Source: the human T2T-CHM13v2.0 reference genome, Homo sapiens. Taken from it: a stretch of 64,000 nt of DNA. The notes under the pieces were generated by a model that did not search any database, was not told where the DNA came from, and saw only the letters and a list, made by a program, of their open reading frames with translations. Every line of letters starts with the position of its first letter. Positions within the stretch are counted from its first letter, which is position 1. Where the stretch lies: NCBI RefSeq assembly GCF_009914755.1, contig NC_060930.1; one strand, written 5' to 3'. Shown here in pieces: positions 1 to 30,020 of the stretch. The position numbers and the translations under genes were made by a program.

Positions 1-654
1 GTGGGAGCTAATATGTTACCCATGTTAAGCTACCCTGGCTTTGGTTTCCAATCATATGCACCTGGAAGGGCCTCAAATGATACAGAGGTTACTCAAAGAA
101 AATCTTCATCCTTTGATGTTGCTTTAATTTCTCACTAAGAACGTTAGTCTATTTTTCCTTTATTCCTTGGAAGAAAGCTTGGGAAAGAAATACAATGAGA
201 TTTCTTTTTCCACCACATACTCCTTAATGTTTATATGTTTCACTTCCTGTCCAAAGAACCAGCTTGAAAGAGGACTCTATAGAAAGTATGGCATTAGAGG
301 AACTAGAAAAACAGCCTCTCCATAGGGTGGAGAAAAGCATATAATGGTGACCTAGGAGCATCAAAACCAAGCAAACTTCACATGCCTTAGAGTTTACTCC
401 TCTACGATTAGAAACCTTTATGCAAGAATTAGTTTCCCCTATCCATCCCAGAAAGTCACCAATACTCTTTCATAAAACAGAAAGCAAAGATGATGCACTC
501 ACTTCATAGCTGACTTAAAATGTTCATCAGCACAACCTCCTTTTTCTCTACCAAACCGTCTCACAAAAGGGAAGAAAATACTCAAAACTACATCTGAAGA
601 CAATTAGACTTTTGGCTCACACCGTGTGCAGACATCAAAAGTGGGCTTTTGTCA

Positions 655-1630
<976 letters not shown>

Positions 1631-2247
1631 GTAGTCATTTATGAGATTGTCATGAGAGCTGATGCTACATAGCAGAAATACTAAGCATGGCCACAGTCAT
1701 GGGGTCAAGCTGGAGACACTGGAAAGTCTTAAAGAAGTTAAGTGGAAAGAAATCTGACTCCTGAAGGGGGGCATTAGGATTGAAGACTTAGAGTTTTCAG
1801 TTTTAAGACACAGTAATTTTACATGTCCTTTTACTTTTTAAAAAAATACAGCTAACAAGGTAGAATTCTACTTAGATTAAGGCATAAACACATAGCTTTC
1901 AATACCACAGTATTTTTGAATTAAGGAATATATGTTTAACAAACATCAACAAGCAAACCAAACAAGAGTATGACAAAGATAAATAGAATGGTTTCTTTAC
2001 ATTTCTCTGTGTTCACCAAGTAGCTACATTGTGCTACTAAAGATTGTGATAGAAAACAACTTACTAATTGAGCCACTAAAAGAAAAAAATATTTTTGACT
2101 AAAACATTTTGTTTGTAATTATGTCACAGTAAAAATTATTATCATTGCTTCCAAGATAGCCAAATAGGAACAGCTCCAGTCTACAACTCCCAGTGAAATC
2201 AATGCAGAAGACAGGTGATTTCTGCATTCCCAACTGAAGTACCTGGT

Positions 2248-2580
2248 TCATCTCATTGGGACTGGTTGGACAGTGGGTGCAGCCCATGGAGGGTGAGCTG
2301 AAGCAGGGCTGGGTGTCACCTCACCTGGGAAACACAAGGGGTCGGGGGATTTCCCTTTCCTAGCCAAGGGAAGCCATGAGTAACCGTACCTGGAGGAATG
2401 ATACACTTCTACCCAAATACTGTGCTTTTCCCACAGTCTTCGCAACCAGCAGACCAGGAGATTCCCTCCCATGCCTGGCTCGGTGGGTCCCACACCCATG
2501 GAGCCTTGCTTGCTGCTAGCACAGCAGTCTGAGATTGTCCTGGGATGCTGGAGCTTGGCAAGGGGAGGGGCATCCACCAT
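2248..2580 (-). CDS. L1 antisense ORF0 homolog, open and extended (110 aa); expression unknown
   Basis: GCAATGG strong Kozak context; MVDAPPLAKLQHPRTISDCCASSKQGSMGVGPTEPG... resembles remembered L1 ORF0 MAGAPPPASLPPCSLISDCCASNQRDSVGVGPSEPG. Confidence 0.6.
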   Translation of the reverse strand: MVDAPPLAKLQHPRTISDCCASSKQGSMGVGPTEPGMGGNLLVCWLRRLWEKHSIWVEVYHSSRYGYSWLPLARKGKSPDPLCFPGEVTPSPASAHPPWAAPTVQPVPMR

Positions 2581-3183
2581 TGCTGAGGCTTGAGTAGGTG
2601 GTTCTATGCTCACAGTGTAAACAAAGCAGCAGGGAAGCTCGAACTGGGCGGAGCCCACTGCAGCTCAGCAAGGCCTGCTGCCTCTCTAGATTCCACCTCT
2701 GGGGGCAGGGCATATCTGAACAAAAGGCAGCAGACAACTTCTGCAGATTTAAGTGTCCTTGCCTGACAGCTCTGAAGAGAGCAGTGGTTCTCCCAGCACG
2801 GCATTCGATCTCTGATAACGGACAGACCACTTCCTCAAGTGGGTCCCTGACCCTCATGTAGCCTGACTGGAGCCTCACCTCCCAGTAGGGGCTGACAGAC
2901 ACCTCATATCAGTGGGTGCCCCTCTGGGGCAAAGCTTCCAGAGGAAGGATCAGGCAGCAATACTTGCTGTTCTGCAGCCTCCGCTGGTGATACCCAGGCA
3001 AACAGGGTCTGGAGTGCACCTGCAGCAAACTCCAACAGACGTGCAGCTGAGGGTCCTGTCTGTTACAAGGAAAACTAACAAACAGAAAGAAATAGCATCA
3101 ACATCAACAAAAAGGAAGTCCACATCAAAACCCCATCCGTAGGTCACCAACACCTAAGACCAAAGGTAGATAAAACCTCAAAA

Positions 3184-4210
3184 ATGGGGAGAAACCAGAG
3201 TGGAAAGGCTGAAAATTCCAAAAACCAGAACACCTCTTCTCCTCCAAAGGAACACAACTCCTCACCAGCAAGGGAACAAAACTGGATGGAGAATGAATTT
3301 GATGAGTTGACAGAAGTAGGCTTCAGAAGGTGGGTAATAACAAACTTCTCTGAGCTAAAGAAGCATGTTCTAACCCATTGCAAGGATGCTAAAAACCTTG
3401 AAAAAAAGATTAGATGAATGACTAACTAGAATAGCCAGTGTAGAGAAGAGTTTAAATGATCTTTTGGTGCTGAAAACCACAGTACAAGAACTTCGTGAAG
3501 CATACACAAGCTTCAACAGCCGATTCAATCAAGTGGAAGAAAGGGGATCAGTGATTGAAGATCAAATTAATGAAATAAAGTGAGAAGACAAGATTATAGA
3601 AAAAAGAATGAAAAGAAACGAACAAAGCCTCCAAGAAATATGGGATTATGTGAAAAGACCAAATCTACATTTGATTGGTGTAACTGAAAGTGACGGGGAG
3701 AATGGGACCAAATTGGAAAACACTCTTCAGGATATTATCCAGGAGAACTTCCCCAACCTAGCAAGGCAGGTCAACATTCAAATTCAGGAAATACAGAGAA
3801 CGCCACAAAGATACTCCTTGAGAAGAGCAACCCCAAGACACATAACTGTGAGATTCATCAAGGTTGAAATGAAGGAAAAAATGTTAAGGGCAGTCAGAGA
3901 GAAAGGTTGGGTTACCTACAAAGGGAAGCCCATCAGACTAACAGTGGATCTCTCGACAGAAACCCTACAAGCCAGAAGAGAGTGGGGGCCAATATTCAAC
4001 ATTCTTAAAGGAAAGAATTTCCAACCCAGAATTTCATATCCAGCCAAACTAAGCTTCATAAGTGAAGGAGAAATAAAGTCCTTTACAGACAAGCAAATGC
4101 TGAGAGATTTTGTCACCACCAGGCCTGCCTTACAAGAGCTCCTGAAGGAAGTACTAAACATGGAAAGACACAACTGGTACCAGCCACTGCAAAAACATGC
4201 CAAATTGTAA
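3184..4210 (+). pseudogene. L1 ORF1p, disrupted
   Basis: MGRNQSGKAENSK... broken by a frameshift in the A-run near 3405; C-terminal 200 aa open (3608-4210, ...QPLQKHAKL). Confidence 0.95.
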
Positions 4211-4273
4211 AGACCATCAATGCTAGGAAGAAACTGCATCAATTAATGGGTGAAAAAACTAGCTAGCATCATA

Positions 4274-7200
4274 ATGACAGGATCAAATTCACACATAACA
4301 ATATTAACCTTAAATGTAAATGGGCTAAATGTCCCAATTAAAAGACACGGACTGGCAAATTGGATAGAGTCAAGACCCATCAGTGTGCTATATTCAGGAG
4401 ACCCATCTCACGTGCAGAGACACACACAGGCTCAAAATAAAGGGAAGGAGGAAGATCTATCAAGCAAATGGAAAGCAAAAAAAAAGCAGGGGTTGCAATC
4501 CTGGTCTCTGATAAAACAGACTTTAAACCAACAAAGATCAAAAGAGACAAAGAAGGGCATTACATAATGGTAAAGAGCTCAATTCAACAAGAAGAGCTAA
4601 CTATCCTAAATATATATGCACCCAATACAGGAGCACCCAGATTCATAAAGCAAGTCCTTAGAGACCTACAAAGAGACTTAGACTCTCACACAATAATAAT
4701 GGGAGACTTTAACACCCCACTGTCAATATTAGACAAATCAACAAGACAGAAAATTAACAAGGATATCCAGGACTTGAACTCAGTTCTGAACCAAGCAGAC
4801 CTAACAGACATCTACAGAACTCTCCACCCAAAATCAACAGAATATAGATTTTTCTCAGCACCACATCACACTTATTCTAAAGTTGACCAAATAATTGGAA
4901 GTAAAACACTCCTCAGCAAATGTAAAAGAAAAGAAATCACAACAAACTGTCTCTCAGACCACAGTGCAATCAAATTAGAATTCAGGATTAAGAAACTCAC
5001 TCCAAACTGCACAACTACATGGAAACTGAACAACCTGCTCCTGAATGACTACTGGGTAAATAACAAAATGAAGGCAGAAATAAAGATGTTCTTTGAAACC
5101 AATTAGAACAAAGACACAACGTACCAGAAGCTCTGGGACACATTTAAAGCAGTGTTTAGAGGGAAATTTACAGCACTAAATGCCCACAAGAGAAAGCAGG
5201 GAAGATCTAAAATTGACACCCTAACATCACAATTAAAAGAACCAGAGAAGTAAGAGCAAACAAATTCAAAAGCTAGCAGAAGGCAAGAAATAACTAAGAT
5301 CAGAGCAGAACTGAAGGAGGTAGAGACACAAAAAACCCTTTAAAAAAATCAGTGAATCCAGGAGCTTTTTTTTTTTTTGAAAAGATCAACAAAATAGATA
5401 GAATGGTAGCAATACTAATAAAGAAGAAAGAAGAATCAAATAGACACAATAAAAAATGATAAAGGGGATATCACCACCAATCCCACAGAAATACAAACTA
5501 CCATCAGAGAATACTATAAACACCTCTACACAAATAAACTAGAAAATCTAGAAGAAACTGAGAAATTCATGGACACATACACCCTCCCAAAACTAAACCA
5601 GGAAGAAGTTGAATCTCTGAATAGACTAAAAATAGCTTCTGAAATTGAGGCAATAATTAATAGCCTACCAACCAAAAAAAATCCAGGACCAGATGGATTC
5701 GCAGCCGAATTCTACCAGAGGTACAAAGAGGAGCTGGTACCATTCCTTCTGAAACTATTCCAATCAATAGAAAAACAGGGAATCCTCCCAAACTCATTTT
5801 ATGAGGCCAGCATCATCCTGATACCAAAGCCTGGCAGAGACACAACAAAAAAAGGGAATTTTAGGCCAATATCCCTGATGAACATTGATGTAAAAATCCT
5901 CAATAAAATACTGGCAAACCAAATCCAGCAGCAAATCAAAAAGCTTATCCACCACAATCAAGTCGGCTTCATCCCTGGGATGCAAGACTGCTTCAACGTA
6001 CCCAAATCAATAGACATAATCTATCACATAAACAGAACCAATGATAAAAACCACATGATTATGTCAATAGATGCAGAAAAGGCCTTCAACAAAAATCAAC
6101 AGCCTTTCGTGCTAAAAACTCTCAATAAACTAGGTATTGATGGAATGTATCTCAAAATAATAAGAGCTATTTATGACAAACCCACAGCCAATATCATACT
6201 GAATGGGCAAAAACTGGAAGCATTCCCTTTGAAAACTGGCATAAGACAAGGATGCCCTCTCTCACCACTCCCATTCAACATAGTAATGGAAGTTCTGGCC
6301 AAAGCAATCAGACAAGAGAAAGAAATAAAGTGTATTCAATTAGGAAAAGAGGAGGTCAAATTGTCTTTGTTTGTGGATCACATGATTGTATATTTAGAAA
6401 ACCCCATCATCTCAGCCCAAAATCTCCTTAAGCTGATAAGCAACTTCAGCAAAGTCTCAGGATACAAAATCAATGTGCAAAAATCACAAGCATTCCAATA
6501 CACCAATAACAGACAGAGAGCCAAATCATGAGTGAACTCCCATTCATAATTACTATAAAGAGAATAAAATACCTAGGAATCCAATTTACAAGGGATATGA
6601 AGGACCTCCTAAAGGAGAACTACAAACCACTGCTCAATGAAATAAAAGAGGTCACAAACAAATAGAAGAACATTCCATGCTCATGGATAGGAAGAATCAA
6701 TATCATGAAAATGGCCATAGTGCCCAAGGTAATTCAATGCTATCCCCATCAAGCTCCCACTGACTCTTCACAGAATTGGAAAAAACTACTTTAAATTTCA
6801 TATGAAACCAAGACAATCCTGAGCAAAAAGAACAAAGCTGGAGGCATCATGCTACCTGACTTCAAACTATACCACAAGGCCACAGTAACCAAAACAGCAT
6901 GACACTGGTACTAAAACAGAGATATAGACCAATGGAACAGAACAGAAGCCTCAGAAATAACACCACACATCTACAACCATCTGATCTGACAAACCTGACA
7001 AAAACAAGCAATGGGGAAAGGATTCCCTATTTAATAAATGTTGCTGGGAAAACTGGCTAGCCATATGCACAAAGCTGAAACTGGATCCCTTCCTTACACC
7101 TTATACAAAAATTAACTCAAGATGGATTAAAGACTTAAACGTAAGACCTAAAACCATAAAAACCCTAGAAGAAAACCTAGGCAATACTGTTCAGGACATA

Positions 7201-8064
7201 GGCATGGGCAAAGACTTCATGACTAAAACACCAAAAGCAATGGCAACAAAAGCCAAAATTGACAAACGGGATCTAATTAAACTAAGAAGCTTCTGCACAG
7301 CAAAAGAAACTATCATCAAAGTGAACAGGCAACCTACAGAATGGGAGAAAATCTTTGCAATCTATCCATCTGACAAAGGGCTAATATCCAGAATCTACAC
7401 AGAACATAAACAAATTTATAAGAAAAAAACAAACAACCCCATCAGAAAGTGGGCAAAGGACATGAACAGACACTTCTCAAAGGAAGACATTTATGCAGCC
7501 AACAGACATATGAAAAAATGCTGATCATCACTGGTCATCAGAGAAATGCAAATCAAAACCACAATGAGATACCATCTCACGCCAGTTAGAATGGTGATCA
7601 TTAAAAAGTCAGGAAATAACAGATGCTGGAGAGGATGTGGAGAAATAGGAACACTTTTACACTGTTGGTGGGAGTGTAAATTAGTTCAACCATTGTGGAA
7701 GACAGTGTGGTGATTCCTCAAGGATCTAGAACTAGAAATACCATTTGAGCCAGCAATCCCATTACTGGGTATATATCCAAAGGATTATAAATCATGCTAC
7801 TATAAAGACACATGCACACATATGTTTATTGTGGCACTATTCACAATAGCAAAGACTTGTAACCAACCCAAATGTCCATCAATAATAGACTAGATAAAGA
7901 CAATGTGTCACATATACACCATGGAATACTACGCAGCCATAAAAAAGGATGAGTTCATGTCCTTTATAGGGACATGGATGAAGCTGGAAACCATCATTCT
8001 CAGCAAAATATCACAAGGACAGAAAATCAAACACTACAGGTTCTCACTCATAAGTGGGAGTTGA
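4274..8064 (+). pseudogene. L1 ORF2p (endonuclease/reverse transcriptase), disrupted
   Basis: MTGSNSHITILTLNVNG start; EN fragment 4468-5106; RT fragment 5569-6531 with catalytic FADD decayed to FVDH; several stops and frameshifts. Confidence 0.95.
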
Positions 8065-9814
8065 ACAATGAGGACACATGGACACAGGGAGGGGAACATC
8101 ACAGACTGGGGCCTGTTGGTGGGTGGGGGGCTGGGGGAGGGATAGCGTTAGGAGAAATACCTAATGTAAATGATGAGTTGATGGCTGTAGCAAACCACCA
8201 TGGCACATGTATACCTATGTAACAAACCTGCACGTTGTGCACAAGTATCCTAGAACTTAAAGTATAATAATAAAAAAAATTATATTAAAATTACATATCT
8301 GATTCAATAGATATTAAATCAGTAAAGATAAAAATAACTTTAGAATCTTAGGATAACATGGCATATAATATATTCCCTACATGAAAAATAAATGGAACTT
8401 TCTTTTTGATAGCTTTATTATTTAATGTATTTACATGAAGATATATGACCTTTATGTTAAAAATATCGAAGGGTATCTTCCTCCCCCTCTTCCATTTCTT
8501 TTTCTAACTTAAACTTTGGGTTGGGCAACTGTGTATATGTAAATACAACTTGATCTTCCAATAAATAACTAAACTTTAAAATTAACAAACAGATAAAGTG
8601 AACCTGTTGGGGTAACCAGACATGAAAACAGAATTCACCTAAAATTTCATATATTATGCTCAAAAAAACCAATATCTTCAATTTAAATTAATCCAAAAAT
8701 GAGATAATGGCAAGAAGTATGTATGTTCACATAGGATTAAAGCTGTTCAGAAAATGAGGAAATAATGAAAGGCAAATTATCACTCAGCTTCCTGCCTCTC
8801 AGCCATCCCTCTCTCCTCAGAGAAAGCCTGGAACTGAAAGACTGTGTGTCTGACCTCTAATAACCTGATTCCAGAATCATCCACAAGCATAAAACAGTAA
8901 AATAATAAATTCTGGTGTTAGGAATCAAGAAAATACCCTTATTGGCTGTTTTGTGTGTCATAATCTAAGAGGTCTACAACATATCACTAAATACTCAGGG
9001 GATGCACTGTGCCCCAGGTCCACGACCCAGTCAGGGACATTACATTGTTTTTATTGTTGCTAATGGCTGATGCTTAGGTCTTCACAGGGCCATAAAATGA
9101 ACATCCAGTGGAAGCAGGTGATAAGTAGGATCACAGGACAAAAACAGACCCAAAAGGTACAAGTGCAAAAGAAAACACAGCTTGTACCTGACCCCAAAGC
9201 AAATGTGAGAATCCTTCTCAATTGCTATACTAAGACTACAGCAGGCTTGTCAAACCTTTCTGGCTACCCTTGTACCTCCAAGAGGCTTTTCAGTAAAGCA
9301 GTATTTTAAAAATTTCCCTTTTGCTTTTTATATATTTTTCTAAATTAGAATTTCATAGTAGAAAACACTACATTATTTCTCTTATCTTACAAGATCATAA
9401 AGAGCGAGGAAAAAAAAATTGGCAGAGAAGACCGCTTGTCTCTCTCCCATTGGAGACGGGAGCCAAATTAATTATTTCCGCCCCCCCTTATCTTCTGAAG
9501 CAAAATAAATGAATTTTGTCTGACAGTCAAGTGTTTCCAATGCAATTTTTATCCTTCCTTTCTGGAGCATATTTTAGTCTTCCTACATAAAACAGCAGGA
9601 CTTTGATTCTGCCACAGAAGGCACTTTAAAGTCTGTCTTATCTCACCTCACAAGTGTTTTGTCAAGGAAGATGAAAACTATTTTTATTTTATGGATGAGA
9701 AAAATAAAGATTCCGGAAAAACAGTAAGTGATCTTTTCAAAATGCAAATTAGTGATGGAGTTAAGAATAAAAGTTCACTTTCACACCGTGCAGAATCATG
9801 CCCTTCTAGACCAC

Positions 9815-29647: not shown

Positions 29648-30020
29648 CTTTGTCCATGATCTTTGATCCAGCAGGCTTATCTGGGACAGTAAGATGGTCA
29701 TGATTGCTACTCAATGAAGAAGTATCATCACTAGATAAAGAGTTCAAAAATCCACTTTCTGATGTGACAAAACTGTTTTCCAGGGCCTTGTGGATGCCTG
29801 CCTCTGAGGGTACAGGTGAATGAACTTGCACAGCAAACGTTATTGGTTGTCCCTCATCTTCAGCAGCAGACAAACTGTTAACTGTGTCAGGCAAGGATTG
29901 TCTCTCTTTAGATAAGGAGGAAGGAAAACTGCTGGGTGTCTTCACTGTATTTTCCAGGGAAGAGAAAGAATACGACGTTCCACTCAGGCTGGGTGAGGAT
30001 GAAGATGCCTGCTGTGCAGT
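29648..30020 (-). CDS. IPCEF1: IPCEF1 internal coding exon (Ser-rich linker), 373 nt
   Basis: aaatag|ACTGCACAGCAG...ATGGACAAAG|gtaaac; TAQQASSSSPSLSGTSYSFSSLENTVKTPSS...PAGSKIMDK; ends in phase 1; I did not find the next exon in the window. Confidence 0.96.

What the first reader, a model, noticed from the sequence alone, without database searches (positions are those of the whole stretch)
2248..2660. Open, extended L1 ORF0 with a splice donor in phase with IPCEF1: possible ORF0-IPCEF1 fusion from the L1 antisense promoter
Seen: ORF1 and ORF2 of this L1 are broken, but the antisense frame from ATG 2580 (GCAATGG) is open for 110 codons. It resembles ORF0 and reads past the point where young-L1 ORF0 (about 71 aa) stops. 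The extension brings a strong donor CAG|GTGAGG (exon end 2325) inside the frame, after 85 codons + 1 nt, so phase 1. The host IPCEF1 intron is also phase 1 (AAA G|gt at 29648). The L1 is on +, so its antisense promoter fires in the IPCEF1 sense direction. Known: L1 antisense promoters drive chimeric transcripts, ORF0 can splice to host exons, and the IPCEF1 C-terminus binds cytohesins. Inference: an 85-aa ORF0 leader could be joined in frame to the remaining C-terminal exons (outside the window), giving a PH-less cytohesin binder. Caveats: the usual first ORF0 donor is CAG|GCATGG here, the second (CAG|GTACGG, ~2390) is phase 2 and would compete, and the 5'UTR CpGs are decayed.
Basis: partly seen in the sequence, partly recalled or inferred. 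Interest (0 to 1): 0.85.

Follow-up and report, generated by a model that had tools for sequence, protein, structure and literature searches.

The report
Old L1 antisense ORF0 inside IPCEF1
An old, broken L1 retrotransposon in an IPCEF1 intron keeps an antisense reading frame and a strong splice donor that could join in frame to the last IPCEF1 exons, but this layout is typical of its L1 subfamily and nothing seen here shows that the fusion is made.

Summary
The sequence description holds. There is a 110-codon antisense ORF (2580 to 2248, minus strand) with start context GCAATGG. It contains a strong donor, CAG|GTGAGG, with exon end 2325 in phase 1. The IPCEF1 intron is also phase 1. I fetched the two remaining IPCEF1 coding exons from the same genome. 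Splicing from 2325 would give an uninterrupted 220-codon frame: 85 ORF0 codons plus the 135-residue IPCEF1 C-terminus.

The "extension" is not special to this locus. The element is an L1PA6 (7.8% diverged), and 11 of 71 close relatives carry the same frame of 110 codons or more, with the donor in phase 1. Twelve of 12 sampled young L1s have the short ORF0 (71 codons in 11, 60 in one). The phase match has a one-in-three chance.

No expression evidence supports the fusion. IPCEF1 is absent from an EST catalogue of 988 L1-antisense chimeric genes. A brain and glioma catalogue lists this L1 with only 4 unspliced read pairs. These lie downstream of the donor and run in the same direction as IPCEF1 pre-mRNA. 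That paper found only 2.9% of such transcripts spliced.

Verdict: the geometry is real and ordinary for the subfamily, and the fusion is untested. Interest is low.

The parts
2145..8299 (+). Full-length but coding-dead L1PA6 element in the IPCEF1 intron that follows exon 29648-30020. It is antisense to IPCEF1.
   Evidence: Alignments to 39 paralogs end at window 2145-2148. ORF1 and ORF2 are in pieces. Pinson et al. 2022 Table S1 lists hg19 chr6:154493303-154499433, +, L1PA6, 78 per mille divergence, consensus positions 5-6152. The 3' limit is taken from the hub's repeat mask.
2248..2580 (-). ORF0 homologue, 110 codons plus stop.
   Evidence: 31 of 64 residues are identical to the ORF0 of a young L1 copy, E 2e-16. 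No Pfam family matched.
2577..2583 (-). ORF0 start codon in context GCAATGG (A at -3, G at +4).
   Evidence: The same ATG is kept in 31 of 39 and 33 of 39 relatives and in 12 of 12 young copies.
2440..2442 (-). CGA codon 47, one of the few surviving CpGs. The same codon is a stop in many relatives.
   Evidence: The stop maps to 2442 in 8 of 39 and 5 of 39 relatives.
2467..2477 (-). Counterpart of the first young-L1 ORF0 donor. Here it is the non-canonical CAG|GCATGG, exon end 2475, phase 1.
   Evidence: U1 duplex -4.8 kcal/mol. If used it would give a 170-codon in-frame product.
2382..2392 (-). Second ORF0 donor, CAG|GTACGG, exon end 2390, phase 2. It is out of frame with IPCEF1.
   Evidence: U1 duplex -8.0 kcal/mol. 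Spliced to the next exon it gives 69 codons with an early stop.
2317..2327 (-). Third donor, CAG|GTGAGG, exon end 2325, phase 1, inside the long ORF0.
   Evidence: U1 duplex -11.6 kcal/mol; six native IPCEF1 donors score -5.6 to -7.1. GT is kept at this site in 39 of 39 closest relatives and 11 of 12 young copies.
2581..2760 (-). Stretch homologous to the L1 antisense promoter region (L1 positions about 435-615). Activity is unknown.
   Evidence: 76% identical to 12 young copies and 90% identical to the closest paralogs. The position of the promoter comes from Criscione 2016 and Pinson 2022 passages.
2516..2713 (-). Upstream ATG (2713-2711) opening a 65-codon frame that overlaps the ORF0 start.
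   Evidence: Present in 32 of 39 close paralogs and 0 of 12 young copies.
1988..2311 (-). Approximate footprint (within a few bases) of the published unspliced chimera Id_1378. It lies wholly downstream of the 2325 donor.
   Evidence: Pinson 2022 Table S2: chr6:154493146-154493463, minus strand, with 4 reads in 3 of 11 samples. The mapping to the window is my inference from the L1 5' end.
29648..30020 (-). Last IPCEF1 coding exon in the window. Its donor is phase 1.

Best explanation
This is an ordinary intronic L1PA6 whose antisense 5'UTR still carries the ORF0 layout typical of its subfamily. That layout is a 110-codon frame, a weak first donor (GC here), an out-of-frame second donor, and a strong third donor that lies inside the frame in phase 1.

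The frame survives here by chance, as it does in roughly 8-21% of close relatives. The phase agreement with the IPCEF1 intron is a one-in-three coincidence.

Minus-strand RNA over this element is most likely IPCEF1 pre-mRNA, or low-level unspliced read-through coupled to IPCEF1 transcription. An ORF0-IPCEF1 fusion is possible on paper: 220 codons through 2325, or 170 through the GC donor at 2475. It is not shown, and if made at all it is probably rare.

Shown: the frame, donors, phases, in-frame join, subfamily typicality and CpG decay. Inferred: low or absent antisense promoter use, and the pre-mRNA origin of the published reads.
For: Geometry.

Subfamily typicality:
- 8 of 39 closest copies have a frame of 110 codons or more (7 of them with the same stop at 2250) and the donor in phase 1.
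- 3 of 39 do so in a sample picked by the adjoining 451 nt. The union is 11 of 71.
- 12 of 12 young copies stop before the third donor.
- The difference from young copies lies in small length changes between the second and third donors and in TGG where young copies have the stop.

Element identity: L1PA6, 7.8% diverged.

No EST-level chimera: IPCEF1 and OPRM1 give 0 hits in the 10 readable supplementary files of Criscione 2016.

Published reads: Pinson 2022 lists 1 read in 8 gliomas and 3 reads in 3 control brains. The chimera is unspliced, not validated and not EST-supported.

Base rates from passages read:
- 44 of 1509 L1 chimeric transcripts were spliced (2.9%), and their expression follows that of the host locus.
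- 57 of about 3200 ORF0 loci were seen fused to an exon.

Upstream ATG: the ATG at 2713 would compete with ORF0 if transcription starts further upstream.
Against: - The 2325 donor is strong. Its predicted U1 pairing is -11.6 kcal/mol, better than six native IPCEF1 donors.
- The next IPCEF1 acceptor, 4.2 kb away, has a long pyrimidine tract.
- The start context is good.
- Passages of Pinson 2022 and Criscione 2016 say that L1PA2-7/8 antisense promoters can be active and that about 17% of such elements gave chimeras in brain and glioma.
- This very element is on that list.
- CpG loss could lessen silencing by methylation (inference).
- Junction-level RNA data were not available, so the absence of evidence rests on two catalogues and on literature searches only.
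Confidence: 0.8

Rival explanations
1. In some tissue or state (brain, tumours, demethylated cells) the antisense promoter of this L1PA6 fires. The 2325 donor is spliced to the next IPCEF1 exon and gives an mRNA for a 220-residue ORF0-IPCEF1 C-terminal protein without the PH domain.
For: - The in-frame join was verified with the real exons.
- 2325 has the strongest predicted donor in the region.
- The start context is good.
- Antisense promoter activity is reported for L1PA2-7/8 in passages read.
- This element is listed with a chimera in brain.
Against: - There is no spliced evidence. IPCEF1 is absent from the 988-gene EST list.
- The listed reads are unspliced, number 4 in all, and lie downstream of the donor.
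- Only 2.9% of such transcripts were spliced, and 57 of about 3200 ORF0 loci gave fusions.
- The promoter stretch is only 76% identical to young copies.
- The second donor (phase 2) and the upstream ATG at 2713 would compete.
Confidence: 0.12
2. The L1 antisense sequence acts on IPCEF1 mRNA itself rather than as a promoter. A cryptic acceptor (for example ...ttttgttcag| at 2716) together with the 2390 or 2325 donor makes a cassette exon that breaks the IPCEF1 frame. Alternatively, antisense L1 polyadenylation signals truncate the upstream transcript (the gene-breaking type of effect).
For: - A pyrimidine-rich AG sits at 2717-2716, upstream of two good donors.
- An exon 2715-2325 would be 391 nt, which is not a multiple of three (arithmetic).
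- A passage of Criscione 2016 notes that genes can retain antisense intronic L1 sequence through cryptic splice sites.
Against: No transcript evidence was seen. The acceptor was not scored, and polyadenylation signals were not examined here.
Confidence: 0.05
3. The open ORF0 at this locus has been kept by selection because the fusion or the peptide is useful to the host.
For: The frame is open over 110 codons despite 7.8% divergence, and it keeps a CGA codon that is a stop in 13 relatives.
Against: 11 of 71 relatives at unrelated loci keep the same frame, so survival by chance is enough. Primate orthologues could not be compared.
Confidence: 0.02

Closest known systems
L1 ORF0 (Denli et al. 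2015, Cell 163:583). I did not read this paper. I know it from passages in Criscione 2016 and Pinson 2022 and from recall.
   Same: It is an antisense frame in the L1 5'UTR downstream of the antisense promoter. It has the same start codon and context as in young copies. The peptide is 48% identical over the first 64 residues. It has splice donors inside the frame. The reported subfamily range, L1PA1-8, includes L1PA6.
   Different: It is 110 codons rather than 71. The first donor is GC rather than GT. A third donor, which lies after the stop in young copies, is inside the frame here. I could not check whether the long form of older subfamilies is already described in that paper.
L1 antisense-promoter chimeric transcripts (Criscione et al. 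2016, PMC4908685; Pinson et al. 2022, PMC9396940)
   Same: It is an intronic L1PA1-7 element with a full 5'UTR whose antisense direction points at downstream host exons. The element is in Pinson's list with chimera Id_1378.
   Different: There is no spliced or EST evidence for this gene. The listed chimera is unspliced, has 4 reads, is unvalidated, and is labelled with OPRM1 rather than the co-oriented IPCEF1.
Gene-breaking by antisense intronic L1 (Wheelan et al. 2005; recalled, not read here)
   Same: The L1 is antisense in an intron, so its antisense promoter could drive a transcript of the downstream exons only.
   Different: Neither the truncated upstream transcript nor the downstream promoter-driven one was shown or testable here.

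Membership tests
L1 ORF0 | Lies on the antisense strand of the 5'UTR of a primate L1PA1-8 element. | tested here: met
   The L1 5' end is at about 2145 and the ORF at 2580-2248 on the minus strand. The L1PA6 label is in Pinson Table S1.
L1 ORF0 | Start codon homologous to that of young-L1 ORF0, in a good context. | tested here: met
   It aligns to the ATG of 12 of 12 young copies (GGCAATGG there, AGCAATGG here).
L1 ORF0 | Peptide similarity to ORF0 of young L1. | tested here: met
   31 of 64 residues identical, E 2e-16.
L1 ORF0 | Length of about 71 aa, with the stop before the third donor. | tested here: not met
   110 aa here, against 71 aa in 11 of 12 young copies. The long form is typical of close relatives.
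L1 ORF0 | Two GT splice donors inside the frame. | tested here: inconclusive
   The first is GC here and the second is GT. A third GT donor is also inside the frame.
L1 antisense-promoter chimeric transcript | [quoted passage not shown] | not testable with these tools
   No CAGE or long-read data were available. The published read pairs do not locate the start.
L1 antisense-promoter chimeric transcript | RNA joining antisense L1 5'UTR sequence to flanking unique sequence or to host exons. | tested here: inconclusive
   Chimera Id_1378 has 4 read pairs in 3 of 11 samples and is unspliced. IPCEF1 pre-mRNA would give the same reads. There is no EST entry.
ORF0-host exon fusion protein | A donor inside ORF0 in the same phase as the downstream host acceptor, with an open frame through to the host stop. 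| tested here: met
   The phase is 1 on both sides, and the product is 220 codons ending at the IPCEF1 stop.
ORF0-host exon fusion protein | Observed junction RNA or peptide. | not testable with these tools
   No junction or proteome data were available. Denli's list of 57 fusions is not held.
L1PA6 subfamily | RepeatMasker assignment and matching divergence. | tested here: met
   Pinson Table S1 row: L1PA6, 78 per mille divergence. The element is 86-90% identical to its closest copies and about 80% identical to young copies. No repeat library was available for a test of my own.

The most novel reading that the evidence does not exclude
The long L1PA6-type ORF0, with a strong donor inside the frame, is a fusion-prone module across the whole subfamily. 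At IPCEF1 it is used in brain or in hypomethylated cells to make a 220-residue protein. This protein would lack the PH domain but keep the cytohesin-binding C-terminus, and it could compete with full-length IPCEF1 or with CNK3-IPCEF1.
Probability: 0.04. Interest if true: 0.6.

Novelty: new member of a known kind. Interest (0 to 1): 0.2.

Why it matters
If the fusion were made, it would add a case to the short list of ORF0-host fusions. It would also give a natural PH-less fragment of a cytohesin scaffold.

As it stands, the value is mainly a caution. An open, extended ORF0 with an in-phase donor is a common inherited property of L1PA6-like copies, so a coincidence of phase with a host intron should not be read as a sign of function.

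A by-product is the observation that ORF0 in this older subfamily is 110 codons long and has an upstream ATG that young L1s lack. This may matter for catalogues of ORF0 peptides.

Tried and rejected
- Denli et al. 2015 and Macia et al. 2011: not held. The list of 57 ORF0 fusions and the promoter tests on L1PA subfamilies were therefore not seen.
- Paper reading closed and I did not try it again. As a result the supplements of Garza et al. 2023 were not searched. The cytohesin papers and the 4 and 7 papers that hold IPCEF1 with 'retrotransposon' or 'chimeric' were seen as listings only. None looks relevant by title or abstract.
- Lanciano et al. 2024 supplements: IPCEF1 gave 0 hits in 9 files. 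The only number matches were unrelated decimals.
- Criscione's one PDF supplement could not be read.
- A broad six-term paper search was badly posed and returned no paper with IPCEF1.
- Pfam gave nothing for ORF0 or for the two C-terminal IPCEF1 exons.
- I did not fold or dock the hypothetical fusion, because it would need a joined sequence.
- No splice-site model such as MaxEnt was available. I used U1 duplex energies instead.
- I rejected the idea that the ORF extension is a local mutation.

Full report
**Observation.** On the minus strand an ATG at 2580 (context GCAATGG) opens a frame of 110 codons that ends with a stop at 2250-2248. Three donor-like sites lie inside it.

| Site | Motif | Exon end | Length from ATG | Phase |
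|---|---|---|---|---|
| First | CAG\|GCATGG | 2475 | 106 nt | 1 |
| Second | CAG\|GTACGG | 2390 | 191 nt | 2 |
| Third | CAG\|GTGAGG | 2325 | 256 nt | 1 |

The five annotated IPCEF1 exons in the window join to 664 nt with one open frame. They end ...AAA G|gt at 29648, so the host intron is phase 1. ORF1 and ORF2 of the L1 are in pieces. CpGs are depleted: 9 in 753 nt, observed/expected 0.16, against 34-35 and about 0.51 in three young copies.

**What lies downstream.** The window's genome is held, so I fetched the 18 kb beyond the window. The next IPCEF1 exon is at window -1908 to -2101 (194 nt). Its acceptor follows a long pyrimidine run, and its first two bases complete a codon, so it is a phase-1 acceptor. 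The last coding exon is at -9981 to -10193 and ends with the stop.

I joined the pieces in a script. The 2325 donor gives an uninterrupted 220-codon frame: 85 ORF0 codons, one junction codon, and 134 further IPCEF1 codons. The GC site at 2475 would give 170 codons in frame. The 2390 donor shifts the frame and stops after 69 codons in the next exon. That IPCEF1's C-terminus binds the cytohesin coiled coil is recalled (Venkateswarlu 2003). I saw only listings of papers on this. Pfam has no model for these two exons or for ORF0.

**Donor strength.** No splice-site model was available, so I used the predicted duplex energy with the 5' end of U1 snRNA.

| Donor | U1 duplex energy (kcal/mol) |
|---|---|
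| 2325 | -11.6 |
| 2390 | -8.0 |
| GC site at 2475 | -4.8 |
| Six native IPCEF1 donors | -5.6 to -7.1 |

**What the element is.** The stretch has thousands of relatives in the genome (5560 first-look candidates, 40 scored). The best is 91% identical and most are 87-89%. Alignments to 39 of them end at window 2145-2148, which is the 5' end of the L1.

Table S1 of Pinson et al. 2022 (PMC9396940) lists the element as hg19 chr6:154493303-154499433, plus strand, L1PA6, 78 per mille divergence, consensus positions 5-6152. The ORF1 start at about 3184 gives a 5'UTR of about 1040 nt. The ORF is the counterpart of ORF0. It starts at the same ATG as in 12 of 12 young copies, and 31 of its first 64 residues are identical, E 2e-16.

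**Is the extension special?** It is not.

- Among the 39 copies most similar in this stretch, 31 keep the ATG. Eight have a frame of 110 codons or more with the third donor in phase 1; seven of these share the stop at 2250 and one reads on to 159 codons. Eight others stop at codon 47, where the window still has CGA.
- That sample was chosen by likeness to the ORF itself. I therefore drew a second sample by likeness of the adjoining 451 nt (window 2950-3400). It has 39 copies, 7 of them shared with the first. Of these, 33 keep the ATG, 3 have the full frame in phase 1, and 10 have the donor inside some frame.
- The union is 11 of 71.
- In 12 young copies with an open ORF1 frame, ORF0 is 71 codons in 11 and 60 in one. 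The third donor (CAG|GTGAGG in 11 of 12) lies after the stop.
- A pairwise alignment shows small length differences between the second and third donors, and TGG in the window where the young copy has its stop.

The long ORF0 with the donor inside it is thus the usual long form of this older subfamily. The window's copy is one of a sizeable minority that have not yet been hit by a stop. The phase match with the host intron has a chance of one in three.

**Is it used?** I could not reach RNA junction, CAGE or proteome data. The literature gave the following.

- Criscione et al. 2016 (PMC4908685; passages and all 10 readable supplementary files, one PDF unreadable) list 988 genes with EST-supported L1 antisense chimeras. 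IPCEF1 and OPRM1 are not among them. The same text says that ORF0 occurs in L1HS and L1PA2-8, and that 57 of about 3200 ORF0 loci were seen fused to an exon.
- Pinson et al. 2022 (passages, Table S1, and Table S2 part 1 plus the matching rows) report chimeras from about 17% of 8744 L1PA1-7 elements in brain and glioma. Only 44 of 1509 (2.9%) were spliced, and expression followed the host locus.
- Their Table S2 has a chimera for this very element, Id_1378: chr6:154493146-154493463, minus strand. It has 1 read in 8 gliomas and 0, 1 and 2 reads in three control brains. It is flagged as not validated and not EST-supported, and the host gene is given as OPRM1 on the plus strand.
- Mapped through the L1 5' end, these reads cover about window 1988-2311. 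That is downstream of the 2325 donor, inside the would-be intron (my inference). The method requires read pairs that span the L1 boundary, so the reads say nothing about the start site. IPCEF1 runs on the same strand, so its pre-mRNA would give exactly such pairs.
- Lanciano et al. 2024 supplements hold no IPCEF1 entry.
- Full-text searches found the following, none on an L1-IPCEF1 transcript by title or abstract.

| Search: IPCEF1 with | Papers found |
|---|---|
| 'L1 antisense promoter' | 0 |
| 'LINE-1' | 1 (a mouse stress atlas) |
| 'retrotransposon' | 4 |
| 'chimeric' | 7 |

- Denli et al. 2015 and Macia et al. 2011 are not held, and the paper reader closed. The supplements of Garza et al. 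2023 and the body of the later listings were therefore not seen.

**Further points against easy translation of ORF0 here.** An upstream ATG at 2713 opens a 65-codon frame that overlaps the ORF0 start. It is present in 32 of 39 close relatives and in 0 of 12 young copies. ORF0 would be the first ATG only for starts between 2581 and 2712. The promoter-homologous stretch is 76% identical to young copies.

**Conclusion.** The geometry is real and the fusion is possible on paper. The features that made it look special are inherited from the subfamily, the phase match is a modest coincidence, and the only RNA evidence is four unspliced read pairs that IPCEF1 pre-mRNA explains.

- An ordinary relic with, at most, rare and unspliced antisense RNA: about 0.8.
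- A real low-level spliced fusion mRNA: about 0.12.
- A functional fusion protein: a few per cent.

If it were true, it would be a new member of a known kind (ORF0-host fusions, gene-breaking).

Noticed in passing
window about 1988-2311 (hg19 chr6:154493146-154493463): Pinson et al. 2022 Table S2 assigns chimera Id_1378 to OPRM1 (plus strand), although IPCEF1 overlaps on the minus strand and runs the same way as the chimera. The reads may therefore be IPCEF1 pre-mRNA rather than an L1-promoted transcript.
   Followed up: partly
window 2711-2713 (minus strand): An upstream ATG opens a 65-codon frame that overlaps the ORF0 start. It is present in 32 of 39 L1PA6-like relatives and absent in 12 of 12 young L1 copies. 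It could damp ORF0 translation in this older subfamily.
   Followed up: partly
window 2440-2442 (minus strand) and relatives L013, L020, L025-L028, L031, L037: Codon 47 of ORF0 is CGA here and a stop in 8 of 39 and 5 of 39 relatives. This recurrent hit is the commonest way the long ORF0 is lost.
   Followed up: yes
window 2325-2327 and the same site in relatives: The three bases before the third donor vary among 39 close relatives: CAG in 15, CGG in 10, TGG in 9, other in 5. This is the pattern of a decaying CpG. The window has the form that fits a donor best.
   Followed up: partly
window 2716-2730 (minus strand): A pyrimidine-rich ...ttttgttcag| lies upstream of the ORF0 donors. With 2390 or 2325 it could define a cryptic exon in IPCEF1 pre-mRNA. 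It was not scored and no transcript data were seen.
   Followed up: no
window 1-64000, plus strand: By the hub's table the L1 lies in the sense direction of the long OPRM1 gene span. I did not examine any effect on OPRM1 3' isoforms.
   Followed up: no
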